Shown one piece after another: positions 43,488 to 53,104 of a DNA stretch of 64,000 bases (position 1 is its first letter; the number at the start of each line of letters is the position of its first letter). The notes under the pieces were generated by a model that saw only the letters and a list, made by a program, of their open reading frames with translations, did no database searches and was not told the DNA's origin. The translations under genes and the position numbers were made by a program. The stretch comes from Vicingaceae bacterium (GTDB lineage Bacteria > Bacteroidota > Bacteroidia > Flavobacteriales_E > Vicingaceae): the NCBI GenBank assembly GCA_026003395.1, contig BPHE01000009.1:5528-69527 (forward strand), given 5' to 3'.

Positions 43488-44249
43488 ATGAAAACGCCGA
43501 AACAAATTTTGCAAAAAACCGGACGTACAATTTTGTTTCAAACAGGGCTTATTATTTCTTTGTCTTTTGTTTATATTGCCATGGAAAGCCGTTGGGCCAC
43601 AACTCCCATGATTCTGAATCCAACCAATACGCTGGATATTGATGATTGGGAAATACCCATTACCATCATTGAAACTCCTAAAAATCAAAAAGTAGAGGAA
43701 CCACAAAAGGTTACCAAAAAGTTGATTGCAAATATTCGTCCTGATGTCAAACCTGCCATGTTTGACAATAAAACGGATAACAGCCGGGATAATCATACCA
43801 ATGATCAAACAACCAATGATCAAAAAATTACACCAATTGACGAAAATGTCACCAACCGGCAAAACATAGATTATATAGAAACGCCCGAATTTCTTCATGT
43901 AGAAGTTTGGCCCAGACACAAATCATGTAAAGACATCGTTGAAAATGAAAAAGCAAAAAGTTGTCTGGAACAAAAATTATATGAATATTTTGAAAAATAC
44001 ATTGACAGGAGTTTTCCACGATACATGCAAAAAAGAGAAGAAAAATTGTATGTAGAAATTGTCATTGACCATCAAGGAAAATTGAGCCGCTTTAAAATTG
44101 TAAAATCCGATAATGAAAAGTTAAGTGAATTGACGTCCAAAGCATTTGAAAAATTGATAGACAAGCATGGAGATGAATTTATTTCAGGGAAAAACAATGG
44201 AAGACAAGTAGCCACAAAATTTTATATCCCCATAAAGTTCTCGAGGTAA
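43488..44249 (+). CDS. energy transducer TonB-family protein
   Basis: N-terminal TM anchor, low-complexity linker, and a C-terminal ~90-aa domain beginning VEVWPRHKSC... and ending KFYIPIKF (TonB_C-like). Confidence 0.6.
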   Translation: MKTPKQILQKTGRTILFQTGLIISLSFVYIAMESRWATTPMILNPTNTLDIDDWEIPITIIETPKNQKVEEPQKVTKKLIANIRPDVKPAMFDNKTDNSRDNHTNDQTTNDQKITPIDENVTNRQNIDYIETPEFLHVEVWPRHKSCKDIVENEKAKSCLEQKLYEYFEKYIDRSFPRYMQKREEKLYVEIVIDHQGKLSRFKIVKSDNEKLSELTSKAFEKLIDKHGDEFISGKNNGRQVATKFYIPIKFSR

Positions 44250-44497: not shown

Positions 44498-46765
44498 ATG
44501 AAAGTAAAACTACAATTTTTCATAATTCCCCTGTTAATTCTAAAAACTTCGGTTATATCAAACCTATATGCACAGGGAGCATATGGCTCGGTTAGATATG
44601 ACAGCATTCCTTTTTTTCACAACAACGACTCTTTGTTGAATCCCTTTACGGGAGGATTTAACAATCCTCAATTTTCACTTGGAGATTTAAATGGCGACGG
44701 CAAAAAAGACCTTTTTGTTTTTGACCGTTCAGGCAACAAGCCGATGGTGTTTATCAATGAAGGATCGCCCGGCAACCCCAAATATGTTTTCAAACATCAA
44801 TTTATGTCTTATTTTCCTTCTCCATCACAATACTCACCTTACATAGAAAGTTGGGCCTTGATAAGGGACTTTAATTGCGATGGTGTAGGGGATTTGTTTG
44901 CTTCGGCTCCGGGAGGTATCATGGTTTTTCGGAACGACGGGATTGCATATCCTCAGTTCACTTCTATAACCGGATTGCTTCTCTCCAATTATCAACCCAA
45001 CAATTTAAACATTTATGTGAGCTCAGCCGATATTCCGGGGATTGATGATGTCGATAAAGACGGTGACCTGGATATTTTGACTTTTGATGTGTTGGGTTCG
45101 CGACTCGAGTATCATCGTAACTATTCTATGGAAAATACCGGTTCTTGTGATACTCTTTGGTATGTTTTGAAAAACAAATGTTGGGGGCACTTCACTGAAA
45201 ATTCTTTTAATAATTCGATCAACCTATTCGATACCTGCAATTACAACGTGGCTTCACCCCAAAGGACCGGGCAGGGCAACAAACATGCGGGTTCGACAGT
45301 TTGTATCATAGAAACAAACAATAACGATGCCCGTGACCTTGTTTTAGGAGACATCTCGTTCCCCAATCTAACTCTGCTTACAAATTGTGCCACCCTTCCC
45401 AACTTAAATTCTTCAATGTGTTCCGCTGATACGGCTTTCCCTAAGAACCATACGAATACGATTGCTTCGGGGGTCCGTAACTTTCCCGCGGCATTTTGGC
45501 TTGATGTCAATGATGACGGTAAACGTGATTTGTTGGTTACGCCCAATGCCGCCGGCACGCTTGTTTCCGATAATTTTTTTAATGTATGGTATTATCAAAA
45601 CAATGGTTCCGACCTGAATCCTTCGTATAACCTTGTTTCAAAAAGGTTTCTTGCAGAAACTGCCGTAGATGTTGGAGAAGGGGCAAACGTTACCATGGCA
45701 GACTTAGACCAGGATGGCTTGTTGGATCTTTTCATCGGCAATTTCGCTTATTATGATTCCACCGGTGGAATGATAGCTTATTACAAAAACATAGGCACGG
45801 CAACCGCGCCGAAATTTAAACTCATTACCCATAATTTTGCCAACTTGCCCTCATACAATTTGAACACAACGTTGAATTTGCCTGCCAAAGCAATTGCCCC
45901 GACATTTGGAGACCTTGACGGTGACGGTGATGTAGATATGATTGTGGGAGACAGCGAAGGAAAAGTACACCTTTTCACCAATAACGGCAACGGAAACTTC
46001 TCACTTGCACAAGCCAATCTTTCTTCGATTGATGTGGGGGAATATGCTGCCCCTCAATTATTTGACCTTAATGGAGACGGACTGTTGGACCTCATTATTG
46101 GAGAAAAAGATGGCAATTTGAATTATTACGAAAATACAGGCACAGCATCCTCTCCTGTTTTCACATTGATAACTCAAAATCTTGGCAACGTTCAAGTCAA
46201 AAAATGGTGGGATTATCAAGGTTATAGTTATCCTTTCTTTTTCCATCATGGGCAAGATATACGTTTATTATGTGGAAGCAAATCCGGATACATTTATTAT
46301 TACGACAGCATCCAAAACAATCTTAATGGAAGTTTTCACCTGGTTGACACCATGTTTATGGATATTTGGGAAGGCATAAGATCAACCGTTGCCGGAGGTT
46401 TTTTTATGGGCAATGACACTTTGGTAGATTTTTTTGTAGGAACATACAATGGTGGAGTGGCTCCTCATAAAGGAACAGGTTATATTGCACCTTCTTCGGT
46501 TGATATCTATTCATTGCCGATAGATGCGGAAATTTATCCGGTTCCTGCATCAGACCATTTTTTGGTTCGCATACGTGAAGCATATTTGCGATTGAGTGAT
46601 CTTACCATAATAATATACAACCTTGCCGGGCAAATAGTGGGGAGTTATCCCTATTCCATGAATCCTGTCGATGTTAATCATCTTCCCGGCGGATTTTACC
46701 TGGTTAAGTTAGAGTGGAAAGGTAAGAAATTAAACTTTACGGGTAAACTAACCATAATCAGGTAG
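44498..46765 (+). CDS. FG-GAP/VCBS-repeat protein with T9SS (Por-type) C-terminal sorting domain
   Basis: Repeated Ca-binding-like DxNGDGxxDL motifs (GDLNGDGKKDLFV, DVDKDGDLDIL, DLDGDGDVDMIV, DLNGDGLLDLII). C-terminal IYPVPASDHFLV...GGFYLVKLEWKGK...LTIIR. Confidence 0.8.
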   Translation: MKVKLQFFIIPLLILKTSVISNLYAQGAYGSVRYDSIPFFHNNDSLLNPFTGGFNNPQFSLGDLNGDGKKDLFVFDRSGNKPMVFINEGSPGNPKYVFKHQFMSYFPSPSQYSPYIESWALIRDFNCDGVGDLFASAPGGIMVFRNDGIAYPQFTSITGLLLSNYQPNNLNIYVSSADIPGIDDVDKDGDLDILTFDVLGSRLEYHRNYSMENTGSCDTLWYVLKNKCWGHFTENSFNNSINLFDTCNYNVASPQRTGQGNKHAGSTVCIIETNNNDARDLVLGDISFPNLTLLTNCATLPNLNSSMCSADTAFPKNHTNTIASGVRNFPAAFWLDVNDDGKRDLLVTPNAAGTLVSDNFFNVWYYQNNGSDLNPSYNLVSKRFLAETAVDVGEGANVTMADLDQDGLLDLFIGNFAYYDSTGGMIAYYKNIGTATAPKFKLITHNFANLPSYNLNTTLNLPAKAIAPTFGDLDGDGDVDMIVGDSEGKVHLFTNNGNGNFSLAQANLSSIDVGEYAAPQLFDLNGDGLLDLIIGEKDGNLNYYENTGTASSPVFTLITQNLGNVQVKKWWDYQGYSYPFFFHHGQDIRLLCGSKSGYIYYYDSIQNNLNGSFHLVDTMFMDIWEGIRSTVAGGFFMGNDTLVDFFVGTYNGGVAPHKGTGYIAPSSVDIYSLPIDAEIYPVPASDHFLVRIREAYLRLSDLTIIIYNLAGQIVGSYPYSMNPVDVNHLPGGFYLVKLEWKGKKLNFTGKLTIIR

Positions 46766-46839: not shown

Positions 46840-47784
46840 TTAGCTGCAAAGTTTCATTTCGTCAAGCACATTCATAACAGTTTTTACTGCATCAGCCGAT
46901 TGATACAGCAATGCCTTTTCTTCTTCGTTAAGATCGAGTTCTATAATTTTTTCCACTCCATTTTTTCCAAGAATCACAGGAACACCCAGATAAATATCCT
47001 TTAAACCATATTCCCCATTCAAGTATGCACAAACGGGTAAAATTCTCCTTTGATTCTTGATGATTGCTTCAACCATTTGTGCTGCAGACGCACCCGGCGC
47101 ATACCATGCAGAAGTGCCAAGCAATTTTACGATTTCCCCTCCACCAAATTTGGTTCGTTCAATGATGGCATCCAACTTCTCTTTTGAAATCAACTGGGTA
47201 ACGGGGATTCCGGAAACAGTGGTATATCTTGGCAAGGGAACCATCGTGTCTCCGTGACCACCGAGTAGCATTGCCTGAATGTCTTTGACCGATACATTCA
47301 GCTCCTCGGCCAAAAAGGCACGGTAACGGGCAGTGTCCAGCACACCGGCCATTCCAAATACTCTCGATGAATCCACCTTGGCAGTAAGATAGGCACAATA
47401 TGTCATTACGTCCAATGGATTGGATACTACAATGATGATGGCATTGGGAGAATATTTGATGACATTTTCCGTCACACTTTTGACAATGTTTGCATTGGTC
47501 GAAATTAAATCGTCACGGCTCATTCCGGGTTTTCTTGGCAACCCCGACGTGATTACAACTACATCAGAATTTTTGGTTTTTTCATAATCGTTGGTCGAAC
47601 CATATACTCTTGTGTCGTAAAGTTCGACAGGTGCTGTTTCCCATATGTCAAGAGCTTTGCCTTCGGCAAACCCCTCTTTGATGTCCAACAGCACTACCTC
47701 TTCTACAATTTCTTTTCTGGCAATGACATCGGCACATGTTGCGCCTACGTTGCCTGCTCCTATTACTGATACTTTCATAGTCAT
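46840..47784 (-). CDS. mdh: malate dehydrogenase (LDH-like MDH)
   Basis: MKVSVIGAGNVGATCA Rossmann start, ITSGLPRKPGMSRDDL, GGHGDTMVP. The start may be MKV at 47778. Confidence 0.93.
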   Translation of the reverse strand: MTMKVSVIGAGNVGATCADVIARKEIVEEVVLLDIKEGFAEGKALDIWETAPVELYDTRVYGSTNDYEKTKNSDVVVITSGLPRKPGMSRDDLISTNANIVKSVTENVIKYSPNAIIIVVSNPLDVMTYCAYLTAKVDSSRVFGMAGVLDTARYRAFLAEELNVSVKDIQAMLLGGHGDTMVPLPRYTTVSGIPVTQLISKEKLDAIIERTKFGGGEIVKLLGTSAWYAPGASAAQMVEAIIKNQRRILPVCAYLNGEYGLKDIYLGVPVILGKNGVEKIIELDLNEEEKALLYQSADAVKTVMNVLDEMKLCS

Positions 47785-47984
47785 TTGTTTTTGCCCGCTA
47801 AATTATAAAACTCATTAAAATTCAAAAGATTTTTTATCAATTTTTTTAAGTACATCTATTTTTGTAAATTAAAAATATGAATTACTTTAATTTTAGAATG
47901 TTTGATTTAAAGATATTTTCGCAAAAAAATTAATAATCTCTTAGGCAACCATTTTACGAACGTTGCGTTTTTAAGCTGAGATGA

Positions 47985-48557
47985 ATGAAAAAATTAACAG
48001 AAAAAGAATTATTAAAAGCCATTGAAGGGTGTAAAAAAAATGACCGACAAAGTCAAAAAATAATATATATGCATTATTATTCCACATTATTGCCTGTCTG
48101 CTATCGATACACATCCAACCGCGATGAAGCTCTTGACTTGTTACATGATGTTTTTTTAAAAATTTTTGAGAAAATAAAAAAATATAAACATACGGGTTCA
48201 TTTGAAGGATGGTTAAAACGATTAACTGTAAACTATGCCATTGATCGATATAGAAAAAACAAAAATATCCGCCCCCTTTCCACAGATGACGAAGAACACC
48301 CCATTCAAATTAGCGAAGTAGAGCCGGATGATGATTCAATTTTTACCCGGGTCTCTTCTTCCGATTTGGTGGATGCCATACGTCAATTGCCTGATGGGTA
48401 CAAAATGGTATTTTGTTTGTATTATTTAGAAGAAATGTCACATAAAGAGATAGCCGAAAAACTAAATATAAATGAAGGGACTTCAAAATCCAATTTGTTT
48501 AAAGCAAAAGCAAAACTAAAAGATATTTTAACCAAAAAATTATTGTTAAAATCATGA
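47985..48557 (+). CDS. ECF-type RNA polymerase sigma-70 family factor
   Basis: Region 2 (DVFLKIFEKI...FEGWLKRLTVNYAIDRYRK) and region 4 HTH (MSHKEIAEKLNINEGTSKSNLFKAKAKL). Confidence 0.88.
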   Translation: MKKLTEKELLKAIEGCKKNDRQSQKIIYMHYYSTLLPVCYRYTSNRDEALDLLHDVFLKIFEKIKKYKHTGSFEGWLKRLTVNYAIDRYRKNKNIRPLSTDDEEHPIQISEVEPDDDSIFTRVSSSDLVDAIRQLPDGYKMVFCLYYLEEMSHKEIAEKLNINEGTSKSNLFKAKAKLKDILTKKLLLKS

Positions 48558-49903
48558 CACCACAAGACAAAAAATTGAGTCAATTATTGCAAGAAAAACT
48601 CAATCGGTTGCCTGACGTAGACACCCAACCCCAATGGGAGAGAATGGAGCAATTGCTTCGTAAAAAATCATATTGGAGTAACTTGAAAACAGCATCTGCA
48701 ATTTTGATGCTTACCGCTTCTGTTGCCGGATTGAGCTATTTTGTAAGCATCAATGGAAACCTGAAGCACCAAGAAGACGGGCATTCGCAATCTATACATA
48801 AGCCGGACATCTCTCAAAAATTGTCAGAAAAACAGACATTCCGGCAAAATAATGATGAAACATTTTCCAACTCATCCAATACGGTTGTGAATGAAAATGT
48901 CAATATACAAGAAAAAGAAAGCTATAATGTTGTAAAAGAGAAAAATATCGATAACAAAGCCAAAAACAACTGTAATGATGCAAACAATACCACTACTTCT
49001 CAAGTAGCATTTCAAGATAAAAATCAAAAAACAATATCGAACGAAAACATGTCGGAAAATAAAACAAACAGTCCGCAACACTCCAATCAAGACATACCTG
49101 AATTCCATATTCTAAGCAGCAAGCCCGAATATTGTGAAGGGGAAATTATGGTATTTAAAACCGACCTTCAAGATAAAAATTTCACCAAACAATGGTTTGT
49201 CAATGGTGAATTTTACGCTTCAGGAAATGCAATATCTATTCCTGCAGAGTTGGATGAAAAAGGTAATGAATATGAAATTACCTTAATTGTACAAGATATA
49301 AAAAACAAAGAAACATCAACGAGCAAGACGCTCAAAGTAGACGTTTATCCTTTGCCTGAGCCCGAAATAAAATACAAAGAATTATATAAGGAAAACGAGG
49401 AAGAATACTTATTTAATCCTTATTGGGAATTTGAGACCTCAGGGCACTACAAACAAATTGAATGGCAACTTGGACAAGGAGAATACGCAAGAGGCAATAA
49501 GGTTCAAACTATTTATAAAAACCCGGGTATTTATGAGGTAAAGCTGACCGTAGTGGACAATAACGGATGTAAAGGCACTGCATTTAAAAAAATATATGTC
49601 GACAAAAAATATGATGTATTTGCACCCAATGCATTCACACCCGATCAGGATGGCTTGAACGACGAATTTATTCCCAAAGCATTAGAAAATACTACTGTTG
49701 AATATCTATTGGAAGTTTCGGACAGTGAGGGAAATATTGTGTTCAGATCAAATGATTTAAACAAAGCATGGAATGGAAAAATGATGAATATAGGCGATCC
49801 TATGCCTGAAGGAACTTATTTTTGGACTTGCACCATAAAAGATAAAAACGGAAAAACTCATCAATGGAACGGTCAGGTATTGTTGTTGAGAGAGAAAAAT
49901 TAA
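48554..49903 (+). CDS. membrane-anchored anti-sigma-like protein with PKD-like and T9SS type-B (CHU_C / gliding-motility-associated C-terminal) domains
   Basis: ATGA overlap with the sigma gene. About 50 aa N-terminus, then a TM segment (ASAILMLTASVAGLSYFV), then an N/K/S/Q-rich linker. PKD-like GIYEVKLTVVDNNGC. CHU_C signature FAPNAFTPDQDGLNDEF...GTYFW...GQVLLLR. Confidence 0.75.
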   Translation: MTPQDKKLSQLLQEKLNRLPDVDTQPQWERMEQLLRKKSYWSNLKTASAILMLTASVAGLSYFVSINGNLKHQEDGHSQSIHKPDISQKLSEKQTFRQNNDETFSNSSNTVVNENVNIQEKESYNVVKEKNIDNKAKNNCNDANNTTTSQVAFQDKNQKTISNENMSENKTNSPQHSNQDIPEFHILSSKPEYCEGEIMVFKTDLQDKNFTKQWFVNGEFYASGNAISIPAELDEKGNEYEITLIVQDIKNKETSTSKTLKVDVYPLPEPEIKYKELYKENEEEYLFNPYWEFETSGHYKQIEWQLGQGEYARGNKVQTIYKNPGIYEVKLTVVDNNGCKGTAFKKIYVDKKYDVFAPNAFTPDQDGLNDEFIPKALENTTVEYLLEVSDSEGNIVFRSNDLNKAWNGKMMNIGDPMPEGTYFWTCTIKDKNGKTHQWNGQVLLLREKN

Positions 49904-49969: not shown

Positions 49970-49994
49970 AACGCTACAGATGTAGCGTTTTTTT
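49970..49994 (+). terminator. intrinsic terminator
   Basis: aacgctacagatgtagcgtt followed by tttttt. Confidence 0.55.
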
Positions 49995-50053
49995 AGTAAA
50001 ATAATTTTAACGTGCAACTTTTAACATTTTTTTGCTGTCTTATGTAAAAATAC

Positions 50054-50082: not shown

Positions 50083-51126
50083 ATGAAATATAAATTTTTA
50101 TTGATAGTCGTTTTAGTGTTGAATTTTTCGAATATACTGTTTTCCCAAAACAATGTGGGAATCAACACCAGCACGCCGGACAATAGCGCCATGCTTGATG
50201 TAGTAGCCAACGACAAAGGGGTTTTGATACCTCGGTTAAATTCTGTACAAATGTTGGCGATTCCAAACCCTGCCAAAGGTCTGTTGATTTTCAACACCGA
50301 CAGTAACTGTTTTTGTTACAATGCAGGTACTCCGTTATTGCCCAACTGGGTATCATTATGTAGTGCAGGAGGATCAGGATCGCCCGGTCCGCAAGGCCCG
50401 ACAGGTCCAACCGGTCCCACAGGAGCACAAGGATTGCCCGGGCCACAAGGTCCGACAGGTCCACCGGAGCACAAGGTCCGGCAGGTCCACAAGGGTCCTA
50501 CAGGGCCGACCGGAGCACAAGGACCACAGGGGATACAAGGTCCAACCGGTCCAACCGGAGCACAGGGTCCGGCAGGTCCACAGGGTCCTACAGGGCCGAC
50601 CGGAGCACAAGGACCACAGGGGATACAAGGTCCAACCGGTCCAACTGGAGCGCAGGGTCCGGCAGGTCCACAGGGACCACAGGGTCCTACAGGACCACAG
50701 GGCCCTACGGGGGTTACATTTAAAACCGGTATTTATCTGACTTCTTCAGTAACTATAAATACAGCCACATGGGCAAATGTGCCGGGTATGTCGTTAACTT
50801 TTACCGCTCAAAATAGTAGTGCTTTAATTTTATTTACGGCCTCAGGTTATGGCTACACAAATTCTATGGCTTACGTGCAATTTAGAATATTAAACAATGG
50901 CTCCCCTATAGGAAGTACAAATACAAAAATACAAAGTTATGATGATTGGACCGGAACCGTAACACCTTGGAGTTGTTCATTTTCCAGGGTTATAACAGGA
51001 TTAATTCCCGGAAATACTTATACATTGACCGTACAAGGACAAAGAGGAGGAATTTTAGGTGTTTATGATGCAATAATTGATCCTTCCTTGGCTGGTCATC
51101 ACATGGCTTTAAATGTTGTACAATAG
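50083..51126 (+). CDS. collagen-like triple-helix-repeat secreted protein with globular C-terminal domain (paralog 1)
   Basis: Signal peptide [22 protein letters not shown], a ~95-aa conserved head, about 110 aa of Gly-X-Y ([13 protein letters not shown]...), and a ~140-aa non-repetitive tail. The ORF track starts 51 nt earlier. Confidence 0.75.
50138..50462 (+). repeat. shared 5' cassette of the two collagen-like genes (copy 1)
   Basis: About 325 bp nearly identical to 51198-51522 (offset 1060). I count 4 mismatches by eye. Confidence 0.85.
50494..50673 (+). repeat. 2 x 90-bp in-frame tandem repeat (30-aa Gly-X-Y unit)
   Basis: The unit ggtcctacagggccgaccggagcacaaggaccacaggggatacaaggtccaaccggtccaac[c/t]ggagc[a/g]cagggtccggcaggtccacag occurs twice. 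Confidence 0.8.
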
Positions 51127-51142
51127 ATAAAAATTTACCATT

Positions 51143-53104
51143 ATGATAAAAAAATGTAGTTTTTTTCTGATATTGTGTGTAATTTATGCTATCGGTGTTT
51201 TTTCCCAAAACAATGTGGGAATCAACACCAGCACGCCGGACAATAGCGCTATGCTTGATGTAGTAGCCAACGACAAAGGGGTTTTGATACCTCGGTTAAA
51301 TTCTGTACAAATGTTGGCGATTCCAAACCCTGCCAAAGGTCTGTTGATTTTCAACACCGACAGTAACTGTTTTTGTTACAATGCAGGTACTCCGTTATTG
51401 CCCAACTGGATATCATTATGTAGTGCAGGAGGATCAGGATCACCCGGTCCGCAAGGCCCGACAGGTCCAACCGGTCCCACAGGAGCACAAGGATTGCCCG
51501 GTCCACAAGGTCCGACAGGTCCGACCGGGGCACAAGGTCCGGCAGGTCCACAAGGTCCGACAGGTCCCACTGGGGCACAAGGTCCGGCAGGCCCACAAGG
51601 TCCGACAGGTCCTACCGGGGCACAAGGTCCGGCAGGTCCACAAGGTCCGACAGGTCCTACTGGGGCACAAGGTCCGGCAGGTCCACAAGGTCCGACAGGT
51701 CCGACAGGTCCTACCTGGACATTGTCTACTATTACATATAATTCCAATGGAACCATTACTCTAAATGGTACAGCCGGTTCGGGAGGACCTATTTCAACCA
51801 CAGGTGGTGCCTGGTTGACAACCGGAAATACGGGAACTACGCCTGCAAGCAATTGGATAGGAACGAATGATAACGTTGATTGGGTGATGAGAACCAATAA
51901 TACCGAAAGGGCCAGAATAACCAATGACGGAAGGTATTTGATCAATCTTGCCACTCCAAATGCCGGCGAAAGATTAACCGTGAATGCAGGAACAGGGTTT
52001 GATGCGGTAAATGGCTATGCTGCAGGTACAAACTTCGGAGGATATTTTCAAAGTACAGGAGGTGCAGGTGTGGGTGCATTCGGCGCAAATGACAATGCAA
52101 GTGGTGCAGGATTGTTTGGACTTAATACTTCAACCGGTGCCGGTACGGTGGGACAAGCAAATTTAGGCAATGGTACGGGTGTTGTAGGTGTCAATTTTGC
52201 TGCCGCAGGAGCGGGTAATGGAGATGGTGTCTATGGTACCACTGCACAAAGCGCAGGATTTGGAGTTTTTGGTACAAACACTAATACGAGCGGAACAGGA
52301 ATTGTCGGTGCCGGAAATAATACAACAGCCGGTTATATAACCACCGGTAGTGGTGGAGCATTTACAGGAACCGGTTTGGGTATTTATGGTTATGCCAATA
52401 CAACTACCGGAACGGGTGCATTATTTAGAGGAAATAATGTCTCTCCTTTTTATACAGTGACAAATGGAAGTGGAAGTGCTTCGAACGGAACTACCCTTGG
52501 TGTGGTTGGTTATTCTTTAAGCACGACCGGTTCAACGGCAAGATTCGGTGGATATTTTGAACAAATTGCTACAATGATTTATGCGTATGTAGGTGGAATA
52601 ACTGCAACAAACACTGCCCGGAAAATAGAGGGTATGGGTACTGTAAATACCGTGGTGAAAGATGTCAATGGCAATCTTGTTGTGCTTTCTGCTCCCGAAG
52701 CACCCGAAAATTTATTCCAGGATTTCGGTGTGGGCCGTTTGGTCAATGGTCGTGCCCATATACAGTTAGATCCAAATTTTTCTAAAAATATTGTCGTCAA
52801 CGAAAAACATCCCTTAAGAGTATTTATTCAATTAAAAGGGGATTGTAAAGGGGTGTATGTTACCAATGAATCTGCTACCGGATTTGATGTGATAGAATTG
52901 CAAGGAGGAAATTCAAATGTGGAGTTTTATTGGTTTGTAACTGCCAATCGAGCTGATGAAGTGAATGCGGATGGAACCGTTGCCCGATATTCTGAAGAAA
53001 GATTTGCACCGGCCATTGGCCCACAACCTAAAACAGAGATGCAACAACGTGAAATAACACCTAGACAGATAAATACTCCTGTGAGAGAAATGAAAAGACG
53101 TTAA
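51143..53104 (+). CDS. collagen-like triple-helix-repeat secreted protein with Gly-rich beta-helix-like and C-terminal domains (paralog 2)
   Basis: Signal peptide, the same head domain as paralog 1, about 100 aa of Gly-X-Y, then degenerate G-x-G-[VIL]-x-G repeats ([42 protein letters not shown]) and a ~200-aa tail. Confidence 0.75.
51198..51522 (+). repeat. shared 5' cassette of the two collagen-like genes (copy 2)
   Basis: See 50138-50462. Confidence 0.85.
51509..51688 (+). repeat. 4 x 45-bp in-frame tandem repeat ([15 protein letters not shown] unit)
   Basis: Units at 51509, 51554, 51599 and 51644, differing only at a few third positions. Confidence 0.85.

What the first reader, a model, noticed from the sequence alone, without database searches (positions are those of the whole stretch)
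48554..49903. Anti-sigma-like protein carrying an outer-membrane secretion (T9SS type-B) signal: a topological paradox
Its position (ATGA-coupled to an ECF sigma gene) and layout (about 50-aa N-terminus, then a single TM segment at residues ~54-76) are those of a membrane anti-sigma factor. It has no HxxxCxxC zinc motif. Its C-terminus is a CHU_C sorting domain (FAPNAFTPDQDGLNDEF ... GTYFW ... GQVLLLR), which normally directs Sec-exported proteins through the T9SS. If the TM segment is a stable anchor, the T9SS signal would be tethered to the inner membrane. If the protein is released or exported, sigma activity could be coupled to T9SS function. The flagellar FlgM/sigma-28 export checkpoint works on a comparable principle.
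Basis: inference. Interest (0 to 1): 0.6.

Follow-up and report, generated by a model that had tools for sequence, protein, structure and literature searches.

The report
Anti-sigma factor ending in T9SS tag
A sigma-factor gene is coupled to a membrane-anchored inhibitor that ends in the export tag of type IX secretion cargo, and the sigma factor's own promoter motif recurs in front of cargo genes with the same tag, which suggests that cargo production is wired to the secretion machinery.

Summary
ORF 48554-49903 (449 aa) overlaps an ECF sigma gene by ATGA. It has a 45-aa hydrophilic N-terminus, one TM helix (about residues 46-66, not 54-76), a ~115-aa disordered linker, two Ig/PKD domains and a C-terminal CHU_C (T9SS type-B) domain.

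The pairing is not chance. 26 of 29 sigma orthologues in related genomes carry the same partner. Full-length members occur in at least 14 families of the class, and the genome has a second such pair.

[quoted passage not shown] The first 40 residues of Dma1 bind its sigma factor. Other relatives fuse the module to a PorP/SprF barrel, the outer-membrane partner of type-B tags.

A conserved ECF promoter (GGCAACC-N15/16-CGTC) precedes the sigma gene in nearly all orthologues. It recurs before type-B cargo genes in three genomes.

Best reading: a Dma-like anti-sigma factor whose outer-membrane-directed module is a T9SS tag, coupling cargo transcription to T9SS/PorP status. The "paradox" has a precedent in Dma. 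Sigma binding, secretion and the direction of control are untested.

I found no published description: a new variant of a known kind.

The parts
47944..47970 (+). ECF-type promoter of the sigma/anti-sigma operon: -35 GGCAACC (47944-47950), 16-nt gap between GGCAAC and CGTT, -10 GCGTTT (47965-47970), 15 nt before the ATG
   Evidence: The same motif sits 40-45 nt before the ATG in 27 of the 29 non-self sigma-orthologue loci plus 2 metagenomic loci. A PWM trained only on foreign orthologue promoters scores this site highest in the whole genome, at 27.2 bits.
47985..48557 (+). ECF sigma factor gene (190 aa; regions 2 and 4)
   Evidence: Pfam Sigma70_r2 E 9e-15 and Sigma70_r4_2 E 2e-17. TIGR02937 scores 104 bits against a cut-off of 42.9. 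Orthologues at 38-50% identity occur in 38 of 41 related genomes.
48554..48688 (+). Cytoplasmic N-terminal module of the partner (aa 1-45): two short helices with a near-invariant Trp28. This is the putative sigma-binding module.
   Evidence: AF2 predicts helices 3-17 and 25-36. W28 is conserved in at least 90% of members. hhalign against the N-termini of sigma-adjacent barrel-ended (Dma-like) proteins gives Prob 96.2%, E 2.7e-9; against the second CHU_C subfamily it gives 97.3%. Dma1 residues 1-40 suffice to bind Das1 (PMC10927553).
48689..48751 (+). Single transmembrane segment (aa ~46-66), predicted signal anchor with N-in topology
   Evidence: Kyte-Doolittle 19-residue maximum is 1.75 at residues 48-66, preceded by RKK..K. 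AF2 predicts a helix at 51-65. The hydrophobic region starts at residue 47, against a median of residue 5 (range 1-20) in the 35 other CHU_C ORFs of the genome with a detectable N-terminal hydrophobic stretch.
48752..49105 (+). Low-complexity N/S/K/Q-rich disordered linker (aa 67-184)
   Evidence: AF2 pLDDT is about 30 over residues 66-178. Length is conserved but sequence is not: median 113 residues, range 79-131, 72% polar, in 29 members.
49106..49609 (+). Two Ig-like/PKD beta-sandwich domains (aa ~185-268 and ~269-352)
   Evidence: AF2 pLDDT exceeds 90. Pfam PKD/PKD_4 covers residues 292-343, and PKD is found in 22 of 29 members. Foldseek's best matches are Ig-domain arrays of Aureispira GhpA and other adhesins.
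49610..49903 (+). C-terminal CHU_C / T9SS type-B sorting domain (aa ~353-449, with the stop codon)
   Evidence: Pfam PF13585 E 1.1e-13; TIGR04131 35.1 bits. It keeps PNAFTPxxDGxND, WNG, PxGxYxW and GxVxLxR, but lacks the cargo 'IFNRWG' motif.
49970..49995 (.). Hairpin flanked by an A-run and a T-run: terminator-like end of the two-gene operon
   Evidence: AACGCTACA-gatg-TAGCGTT: the tool calls it on the - strand only (8 pairs, T-run); its + strand tail TTTTTAG is read from the sequence, so terminating the + strand operon is an inference.

Best explanation
The ORF is the cognate membrane-anchored anti-sigma factor of the upstream ECF sigma factor. [quoted passage not shown]

Proposed mechanism:
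1. A ~40-aa two-helix N-terminal module holds the sigma factor at the inner membrane.
2. A single TM helix anchors the protein.
3. A ~113-aa disordered linker lets the folded Ig-Ig-CTD module reach the outer-membrane side of the periplasm.
4. Where Dma proteins carry an 8-stranded outer-membrane barrel, this family carries a T9SS type-B sorting domain. I propose that this domain docks on the T9SS or on a PorP/SprF-like outer-membrane protein.
5. The state of that contact (free, occupied by competing cargo, or pulled on) would set anti-sigma stability and so sigma activity.
6. The released sigma factor transcribes its own operon and a set of large type-B (and some type-A) T9SS cargo genes that carry the same GCAAC-N15-17-CGTY promoter.

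Shown here: the architecture, the conserved pairing, N-terminal homology to barrel-ended (Dma-like) partners of paralogous sigma genes, the conserved promoter, and its enrichment before cargo genes.

Inferred: sigma binding, CTD engagement with T9SS/PorP, proteolytic release, and the sign of the regulation.
For: (1) Pairing.
- ATGA overlap in the window.
- The same gene order in 4 metagenomic homologues and in 26 of 29 sigma orthologues.
- Full-length family members in at least 38 of 201 sampled genomes and at least 14 families of the class.
- A second paralogous pair in this genome at C4:61735-63427, and in 9 of 20 second-best sigma loci of relatives.

(2) N-terminal module.
- It is conserved well beyond what a signal-peptide n-region would be.
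- hhalign against the N-termini of sigma-adjacent proteins with an OMP_b-brl_2 barrel gives Prob 96.2%, E 2.7e-9.
- In B. thetaiotaomicron, Dma1 residues 1-40 pull down Das1 (PMC10927553).
- A profile of the module finds 7566 cluster representatives. Among the best 150, 51 end in CHU_C. Of the 67 long ones without CHU_C, 50 have OMP_b-brl_2 and 4 have PorP_SprF.

(3) Fusion evidence.
- The PorP/SprF-fused members (P0022, P0041) also sit 1 nt behind an ECF sigma gene.
- They are followed by a small ORF; the one after P0022 (214 aa) has a weak CHU_C hit, the one after P0041 has no family record.
- So the same module is attached either to the type-B tag or to the family of its known outer-membrane partner (PMC9143113).

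(4) Topology.
- The hydrophobic region starts at residue 47, against a median of 5 in ordinary CHU_C cargo.
- Basic residues lie on the N-terminal side of the TM.
- AF2 shows two helices, a TM helix, a disordered linker and confident beta domains.
- Linker length is conserved.

(5) Regulon.
- The promoter GGCAACC-N15/16-CGTC is conserved before the sigma gene in 27 of the 29 non-self orthologue loci.
- In the own genome, GCAAC-N15-17-CGTY gives 16 intergenic-sense hits against 2 antisense, and 7 of 14 target genes are CHU_C genes (background 53/2119, Fisher p 1.2e-8). Three control patterns give 1-2 intergenic hits and no CHU_C target.
- With the foreign-trained PWM, 10 of the top 15 sites are intergenic-sense. 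Five precede CHU_C genes, one a clear type-A CTD gene and one a gene with a sub-threshold type-A hit.
- Replication in two other genera (G006, G022): 14 CHU_C ORFs carry the motif in sense orientation and none in antisense, with 0.4 expected.

(6) The T9SS is present: SprA, 18 PorP/SprF genes and 55 CHU_C hits.
Against: - No experiment or complex model shows that this N-terminus binds this sigma factor. The tools could not model a two-chain complex.
- The barrel-ended comparison set was identified by architecture, not by direct alignment to B. thetaiotaomicron Dma1.
- The CTD is a divergent subclade of CHU_C. It lacks the 'IFNRWG' motif of cargo and scores lower: a median of 65 bits against 104 on a cargo-trained HMM, which favours cargo. 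It may no longer be a T9SS signal.
- No PorP/SprF gene lies next to either pair in this genome.
- A chain anchored in the inner membrane cannot simply be released on the cell surface. How the CTD would engage the translocon is unknown.
- The regulon is predicted from sequence only. Other ECF sigma factors with similar -35/-10 preferences, including the paralogue (TGCAACC...CATCT/TGTC), could read these promoters.
- Gene calls in the genome-wide statistics are crude longest-ORF calls.
Confidence: 0.58

Rival explanations
1. It is a conventional single-pass anti-sigma factor. The Ig-Ig-CHU_C ectodomain stays in the periplasm as an ordinary sensor domain, for example binding a glycan, peptidoglycan fragment or unfolded cargo. 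In this reading the CHU_C fold is only a recycled beta-sandwich with no contact to the T9SS or PorP proteins.
For: - The CTD differs systematically from cargo CTDs: it has lost 'IFNRWG', and has WNG and YxW instead of WDG and YxY.
- There is no adjacent PorP/SprF gene.
- Ig/PKD domains are common ligand-binding sensor modules.
- Anti-sigma factors carry very diverse periplasmic domains (PMC7826278).
Against: - The hallmark CTD motifs and the extreme C-terminal position are kept in 28 of 29 members.
- Sister families attach the same N-terminal module to outer-membrane barrels, including PorP/SprF, the family of the type-B CTD partner.
- A ~113-aa spacer of conserved length is not needed for a membrane-proximal sensor.
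- The predicted regulon is type-B cargo.
Confidence: 0.25
2. It is an ordinary secreted T9SS type-B cargo protein with an unusually long signal peptide, or with its true start at Met31. It is merely co-transcribed with the sigma factor as a regulon member, and its N-terminus has no regulatory role.
For: - Met31 followed by KK and a hydrophobic stretch would resemble a signal peptide.
- SVA at residues 55-57 could serve as a signal peptidase site.
- Public sources name relatives 'gliding motility-associated-like protein'.
Against: - Residues 1-30 are conserved across families, with W28 near-invariant, and are homologous to the N-termini of barrel-ended sigma partners.
- Many orthologues have no internal Met before the TM.
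- Start-codon overlap with the sigma stop is conserved.
- There is no conserved AxA-type site, and a conserved aromatic YF lies at the outer end of the TM.
- The hydrophobic region is an outlier among the genome's CHU_C ORFs with a detectable one.
Confidence: 0.05
3. It is a surface-signalling tether of the FecR type. The CTD binds a specific outer-membrane protein only to receive an external signal such as surface contact or substrate. It has no relation to secretion load, and the cargo genes are simply adhesins induced by that signal.
For: - The envelope-spanning layout, long linker and autoregulated ECF operon resemble FecI/FecR/FecA logic.
- Targets are large adhesin-like proteins.
- Nine of ten motif-bearing CHU_C genes lack their own PorP gene.
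Against: - No TonB-dependent transducer or other dedicated outer-membrane partner is encoded nearby.
- The domain used is the secretion tag itself rather than a FecR-type C-terminal domain.
- With these data this reading cannot be separated from the best explanation, and it overlaps with it.
Confidence: 0.1

Closest known systems
[quoted passage not shown]
   Same: - The gene sits directly behind a Bacteroidota ECF sigma gene.
- It has a ~40-aa cytoplasmic N-terminal module, one TM helix and a long disordered periplasmic linker.
- Its C-terminal module belongs at the outer membrane.
- The N-terminal module here is homologous (hhalign 96%) to that of barrel-ended partners of paralogous sigma genes in related genomes.
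   Different: - The C-terminus is Ig-Ig-CHU_C (a T9SS type-B sorting domain) instead of an 8-stranded OMP_b-brl_2 barrel.
- Outer-membrane engagement would therefore depend on T9SS/PorP rather than on BAM insertion.
- The predicted regulon is T9SS cargo, not vesiculation genes.
- This genome shows no barrel-type Dma next to a sigma gene.
FlgM / sigma-28 flagellar export checkpoint
   Same: An anti-sigma factor carries the export signal of the same secretion apparatus whose later substrates are transcribed by the sigma factor it inhibits.
   Different: FlgM is a small soluble protein that is exported whole. Here the protein is anchored in the inner membrane, so release would need cleavage. Export is not shown, and there is no sequence or fold relationship.
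PorA - PorXY - SigP pathway of Porphyromonas gingivalis (PMC7712824, PMC12152298)
   Same: A CTD-bearing T9SS protein feeds information about the secretion system or cell surface into an ECF sigma factor.
   Different: In P. gingivalis the signal passes through a two-component system. PorA is a free cargo protein, and SigP drives T9SS machinery genes. Here the CTD is part of the anti-sigma factor itself, and the predicted targets are cargo genes.
FecI/FecR/FecA-type cell-surface signalling
   Same: An inner-membrane anti-sigma factor has a periplasmic end that contacts an outer-membrane protein, and the ECF operon is autoregulated.
   Different: There is no FecR domain, no TonB-dependent transducer and no TonB box logic. 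The contact module is a secretion tag.
T9SS type-B CTD cargo with PorP/SprF partners (SprB/SprF, PG1035/PorP; PMC9143113)
   Same: A CHU_C/TIGR04131 domain at the extreme C-terminus, preceded by Ig-like domains.
   Different: There is no short cleavable signal peptide and no adjacent PorP/SprF gene. The protein has an added sigma-linked cytoplasmic module and TM anchor, and the CTD lacks the cargo 'IFNRWG' motif.

Membership tests
ECF (group 4) sigma-70 factors (upstream gene 47985-48557) | Regions sigma-2 and sigma-4 only, about 190 aa | tested here: met
   Pfam Sigma70_r2 and Sigma70_r4_2 hit. TIGR02937 scores 104 bits against a cut-off of 42.9.
ECF (group 4) sigma-70 factors (upstream gene 47985-48557) | Autoregulated promoter with an AAC-type -35 and a CGT-type -10 | tested here: met
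   GGCAACC-N15/16-CGT(C/T) is conserved 40-45 nt before the ATG in 27 of the 29 non-self orthologue loci. That it functions as a promoter is inferred.
ECF21 group (the sigma partners of Dma proteins) | Membership in the ECF21 sequence cluster | not testable with these tools
   No ECF-group models are available. The only evidence is indirect: paralogues at 35-45% identity pair with barrel-type, Dma-like proteins.
[quoted passage not shown] | Encoded directly behind an ECF sigma gene | tested here: met
   ATGA overlap, conserved in 26 of 29 orthologue loci.
[quoted passage not shown] | Short cytoplasmic N-terminal sigma-binding region (~40 aa) followed by one TM helix | tested here: inconclusive
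   Layout and homology of the module are met. Binding to the sigma factor itself was not tested.
[quoted passage not shown] | Long intrinsically disordered periplasmic linker | tested here: met
   pLDDT is about 30 over residues 66-178. Median linker length is 113 aa across 29 members.
[quoted passage not shown] | C-terminal 8-stranded outer-membrane beta-barrel (OMP_b-brl_2) | tested here: not met
   Pfam finds PKD and CHU_C, not a barrel. The AF2 model shows beta-sandwiches. It is therefore not filed as a Dma member, only as a sister variant.
T9SS type-B CTD cargo | CHU_C / TIGR04131 domain at the extreme C-terminus | tested here: met
   PF13585 E 1.1e-13 over residues 357-436; TIGR04131 35.1 bits against a cut-off of 35.
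T9SS type-B CTD cargo | N-terminal cleavable Sec signal peptide | tested here: not met
   The hydrophobic segment starts at residue 47, after a conserved 45-aa module. Cargo ORFs of the same genome start theirs at a median of residue 5. No dedicated signal-peptide predictor was available.
T9SS type-B CTD cargo | Cognate PorP/SprF-like gene adjacent | tested here: not met
   None of the 18 PorP/SprF genes lies next to either pair. Most CHU_C genes of this genome also lack one, so this criterion is weak.
T9SS type-B CTD cargo | T9SS-dependent secretion or surface exposure | not testable with these tools
   This needs fractionation in wild-type and T9SS mutants.
Zinc-binding (ZAS) class I anti-sigma factors | HxxxCxxC motif in an ~80-90 aa four-helix anti-sigma domain | tested here: not met
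   Residues 1-45 contain no His or Cys. Only two short helices are predicted.

The most novel reading that the evidence does not exclude
The protein acts as a decoy cargo in a secretion-coupled checkpoint. The T9SS, or a free PorP/SprF-like shuttle, engages the anti-sigma factor's type-B tag. Pulling on or docking the inner-membrane-tethered chain then triggers its proteolysis and frees the sigma factor. Transcription of type-B cargo adhesins would thus be matched to available export or anchoring capacity. This would be FlgM-style logic evolved independently in the type IX system, with a paralogous second channel in the same cell.
Probability: 0.3. Interest if true: 0.85.

Novelty: new variant of a known kind. 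Interest (0 to 1): 0.66.

Why it matters
How T9SS cargo genes are regulated is poorly understood, especially the many giant type-B adhesins of environmental Bacteroidota. The known circuit (PorXY-SigP) controls the machinery in one pathogen.

This family would give a direct physical link between an ECF sigma factor and the type-B branch of the T9SS. It is widespread: at least 14 families of the class, often with two pairs per genome.

It also yields a computable promoter motif that predicts which cargo genes are controlled.

It extends the recently described Dma principle of anti-sigma factors that reach the outer membrane. The same N-terminal module is now seen joined to three outer-membrane-directed modules: an 8-stranded barrel, a PorP/SprF barrel and a type-B tag. 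This points to a general Bacteroidota strategy for reporting outer-membrane state to the cytoplasm.

All predictions can be tested with standard genetics in gliding laboratory strains.

Tried and rejected
- Pfam and NCBIfam on the N-terminal 70-73 residues of four members gave only noise.
- A word-indexed homologue search restricted to residues 1-70 found only near-identical proteins. The exhaustive profile search was needed instead.
With the single protein it returned one locus, titled only 'Bacteroidia bacterium'.
- Foldseek against the PDB gave only generic Ig-domain arrays (GhpA, SGBP-B, complement). It found no CTD-specific or anti-sigma match.
- A sigma/anti-sigma complex model could not be made. 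The structure tool takes single chains from the window only, and the two frames cannot be joined legitimately.
- Literature searches for anti-sigma + CHU_C, type-B CTD + sigma factor, T9SS + anti-sigma + Flavobacterium, and Dma follow-ups found no description of a CTD-bearing anti-sigma factor. The supplement of the ECF classification paper is not held.
- The paralogue-type -10 'CATC' has no intergenic hits in this genome; 'TGTC', the own paralogue's form, does.
- I tested whether the anti-sigma CTD resembles the CTDs of its predicted regulon more than other CTDs. The signal is weak (median 39 against 30 bits, one-sided p 0.03; none for the paralogue), so I did not rely on it.
- I considered and rejected an alternative start at Met31 with a classical signal peptide (see rivals).
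Full report
**1. What is in the sequence**

The window holds two overlapping ORFs on the + strand: 47985-48557 (190 aa) and 48554-49903 (449 aa). They share ATGA.

The first ORF is an ECF sigma factor. It hits Sigma70_r2 and Sigma70_r4_2, and TIGR02937 at 104 bits.

The second ORF has a PKD domain at residues 292-343 and a CHU_C domain at residues 357-436 (E 1.1e-13). It just reaches NCBI's cut-off for 'T9SS type B sorting domain' (35.1 against 35 bits).

Hydropathy places the only hydrophobic segment at about residues 46-66, preceded by RKK..K. The first 45 residues contain no His or Cys.

An AlphaFold2 model built on a 29-sequence family alignment shows the following:
- two short helices (residues 3-17 and 25-36);
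- a TM helix (51-65);
- a disordered stretch (66-178, pLDDT about 30);
- confident beta domains from residue 180 to the end (pLDDT above 90).

Foldseek matches the beta domains to Ig-domain arrays of Bacteroidota surface proteins such as Aureispira GhpA.

**2. The pairing is conserved**

- Metagenomic homologues: only a handful of full-length homologues came from the word-indexed search. All four that I looked up lie 4-8 nt overlapped behind an ECF sigma gene. They are 27-36% identical to the query, or similar only in the CTD.
- Related genomes: I used the sigma protein as an anchor in 40 related genomes. 26 of the 29 best non-self loci have, directly behind the sigma gene, a 398-452 aa protein with the same layout. 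The layout is 41-52 hydrophilic residues, a TM, a variable linker, two Ig/PKD modules and a terminal CHU_C. Pfam confirms CHU_C in 28 of the 29 aligned members.
- Across the class: a profile of the full-length family finds end-to-end matches in ORFs of 400-500 aa in at least 38 of 201 genomes sampled evenly. These represent at least 14 families, and the list was truncated.
- A second pair: the genome (2.54 Mb) has a paralogous pair at C4:61735-63427. Nine of twenty second-best sigma loci in relatives carry that second subfamily.

**3. Signal peptide or anchor**

In 35 other CHU_C ORFs of this genome with a detectable N-terminal hydrophobic stretch, that stretch starts at a median of residue 5 (range 1-20). 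They have the usual MKK-hydrophobic-AQ look. In the sigma-linked protein it starts at residue 47.

The 45 residues before it are conserved across families. The motif is roughly F..x(I/L)(K/R)xKLExFExxYNxxxWxx(M/I)ExxL, and Trp28 is present in at least 90% of members.

Many orthologues have no internal Met that could serve as an alternative start. The outer end of the TM carries a conserved YF rather than an AxA site.

I could not run a dedicated predictor. The evidence favours a type II signal anchor with the N-terminus in the cytoplasm.

**4. Relation to known anti-sigma factors**

The literature search led to the Dma family (Pardue et al. 2024, PMC10927553). In B. thetaiotaomicron, Dma1 lies behind the ECF21 sigma factor Das1. 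It has an N-terminal TM region, a long disordered linker and an OMP_b-brl_2 barrel in the outer membrane. Its first 40 residues suffice to pull down Das1.

Among the close paralogues of the window's sigma factor in related genomes, 11 sampled loci have partners without CHU_C. Seven of these 11 give a (mostly sub-cut-off) Pfam barrel hit, six to OMP_b-brl_2.

I compared the cytoplasmic 42 residues, without the TM, by profile-profile alignment:
- against these barrel-type partners: Prob 96.2%, E 2.7e-9;
- against the second CHU_C subfamily: Prob 97.3%.

An exhaustive profile search with the N-terminal module plus TM finds 7566 cluster representatives at E <= 1e-3. The module is often repeated in tandem, 2-9 times. 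Among the best 150:
- 51 end in CHU_C;
- 29 are fragments shorter than 300 aa;
- of the 67 long ones without CHU_C, 50 carry OMP_b-brl_2 and 4 carry a PorP/SprF barrel.

Two PorP/SprF-fused members that I looked up sit 1 nt behind an ECF sigma gene. Each is followed by a small ORF; the one after P0022 has a weak CHU_C hit.

PorP/SprF proteins are the known outer-membrane partners of type-B CTDs (PMC9143113). One anti-sigma-type module is therefore found attached to three things: an outer-membrane barrel, the family of the type-B partner protein, or the type-B tag itself.

This makes it likely that the tag in the window's protein is directed at the T9SS/PorP apparatus. It also removes most of the 'paradox': anti-sigma factors anchored in the inner membrane that reach the outer membrane already exist in this lineage. 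The linker has a conserved length (median 113 aa, range 79-131) but not a conserved sequence, which fits a periplasm-spanning spacer.

**5. What the sigma factor may control**

The motif (A/G)GCAACC-N14/15-(A/G)CGTC(T/A)T lies 40-45 nt upstream of the sigma start codon in 27 of the 29 non-self orthologue loci and in two metagenomic loci. The window's copy is at 47944-47970. This is the classic form of an autoregulated ECF promoter.

Own genome, pattern scan:
- GCAAC-N15-17-CGTY occurs 68 times.
- 16 hits are intergenic and point at the next gene, against 2 that point away.
- Of the 14 genes so marked, 7 are CHU_C genes of 1000-3400 aa (background 53 of 2119, Fisher p 1.2e-8).
- Three control patterns give 1-2 intergenic hits and no CHU_C gene.

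The other marked genes are the sigma operon itself, a clear type-A CTD protein, an amidase with a sub-threshold type-A hit, a periplasmic redoxin and small secreted proteins.

Own genome, PWM scan:
- The PWM was trained only on foreign orthologue promoters.
- It ranks the window's own promoter first in the genome, at 27.2 bits.
- 10 of its top 15 sites are intergenic and in sense orientation, and 5 of those precede CHU_C genes.

Replication in two single-contig genomes of other genera:
- The motif lies in sense orientation within -200 to +45 nt of the ORF boundary of 14 CHU_C ORFs.
- It never lies there in antisense orientation; 0.4 hits are expected by chance.

The second subfamily's sigma genes carry a related promoter with a different -10 (TGCAACC-N15/16-CATCT, or TGTC in this genome). 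In this genome that form precedes three further CHU_C genes. It also precedes the collagen-like gene immediately downstream of the anti-sigma gene.

These are sequence predictions. No expression data were obtainable.

**6. The tag itself**

The CTDs of both anti-sigma subfamilies keep the core motifs of cargo CTDs: PNAFTPxGDGxND, W(N/D)G, PxGxYx(W/Y) and GxVxLxR. Both lack the 'IFNRWG' motif that is conserved in the genome's cargo CTDs. They form a recognisable, slightly altered subclade.

The genome has a T9SS: a SprA translocon, 18 PorP/SprF genes and 55 CHU_C matches. No PorP/SprF gene is adjacent to either pair. Nine of the ten motif-bearing CHU_C genes also lack one.

**7. Interpretation**

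I think the protein is the cognate anti-sigma factor (about 0.85). It is a sister variant of the Dma family in which the outer-membrane-directed module is a type-B T9SS tag.

The most likely mechanism links the tag's engagement with the T9SS or a PorP-like protein to anti-sigma stability. That in turn would control transcription of a set of type-B cargo genes. My overall confidence in this mechanism is about 0.58.

Three points remain open:
- whether the ectodomain is only docked, or is cleaved and exported as in the FlgM analogy;
- whether it senses cargo load or an external cue;
- what the sign of the control is.

The main rival is that the ectodomain is an ordinary periplasmic sensor that happens to use this fold (0.25). 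An ordinary cargo protein with a long signal peptide is unlikely (0.05).

**8. Novelty**

I found no paper describing an anti-sigma factor with a T9SS sorting domain. Public sources call relatives 'gliding motility-associated-like protein'.

Earlier notes of this scan describe the same architecture in other genomes and reach similar readings. I consulted them after forming mine. They are not independent evidence, but they agree that the class is widespread.

I rate it a new variant of a known kind. The new elements here are the conserved promoter, the predicted cargo regulon replicated in three genomes, and the PorP/SprF-fused relatives.

Noticed in passing
own genome contig C4:61735-63427 (outside the window): A second, paralogous pair: an ECF sigma factor (184 aa) and a 382-aa TM protein ending in CHU_C. 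Its promoter is TGCAACC-N16-TGTC. The same subfamily sits behind the second-best sigma hit in 9 of 20 sampled loci of related genomes, where the -10 is usually CATCT.
   Followed up: partly
window 50014-50039, upstream of the collagen-like gene 50083-51126: An ECF-type promoter of the paralogue's kind (GCAAC at 50014-50018, a 17-nt gap, TGTC at 50036-50039) lies about 45 nt before the likely ATG of the first collagen-like gene. That gene may therefore belong to the regulon of the second sigma factor. The second collagen-like gene (51143-53104) shows no such site.
   Followed up: partly
L058:3424-6540 (GCA_023251075.1), and the contig of P0041: A three-gene unit. It consists of an ECF sigma gene, then a 631-aa protein with 4-5 tandem copies of the N-terminal Trp motif, a TM, a linker and a PorP/SprF barrel, then an overlapping small ORF (a 214-aa protein with a weak CHU_C hit after P0022; a 148-aa ORF with no family record after P0041). 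This appears to be an anti-sigma-like module fused to the T9SS type-B partner protein.
   Followed up: partly
proteins P0018-P0167: The ~37-aa N-terminal Trp motif is a repeat unit. Many relatives carry 2-9 tandem copies before the TM, including CHU_C-ended ones (for example P0018, with 5 copies). What extra copies do is unexplained, since one copy (40 aa) suffices for sigma binding in Dma1.
   Followed up: no
own genome, 10 motif-bearing CHU_C genes: Nine of the ten CHU_C genes preceded by either ECF motif lack a PorP/SprF gene downstream, against 15 of 41 other CHU_C genes that have one. Several motif-bearing genes head tandem runs of CHU_C genes (C2:140530-151414, C2:269179-276806). The trend is not significant.
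   Followed up: partly
own genome C2:49586-50023: A 145-aa secreted protein preceded by the sigma's motif shares the N-terminal 'head' sequence (G(I/V)GIN...LDV...KG(L/V)LIPR) with the two collagen-like proteins of the window (50083-51126 and 51143-53104).
   Followed up: no
window 44498-46765 and 43488-44249: A 755-aa FG-GAP/VCBS repeat protein with a type-A T9SS sorting domain (Por_Secre_tail, 32 bits), and a 253-aa protein with a weak TonB C-terminal domain, lie upstream. They are separated from the sigma operon by a malate/lactate dehydrogenase gene on the opposite strand (46840-47784).
   Followed up: no
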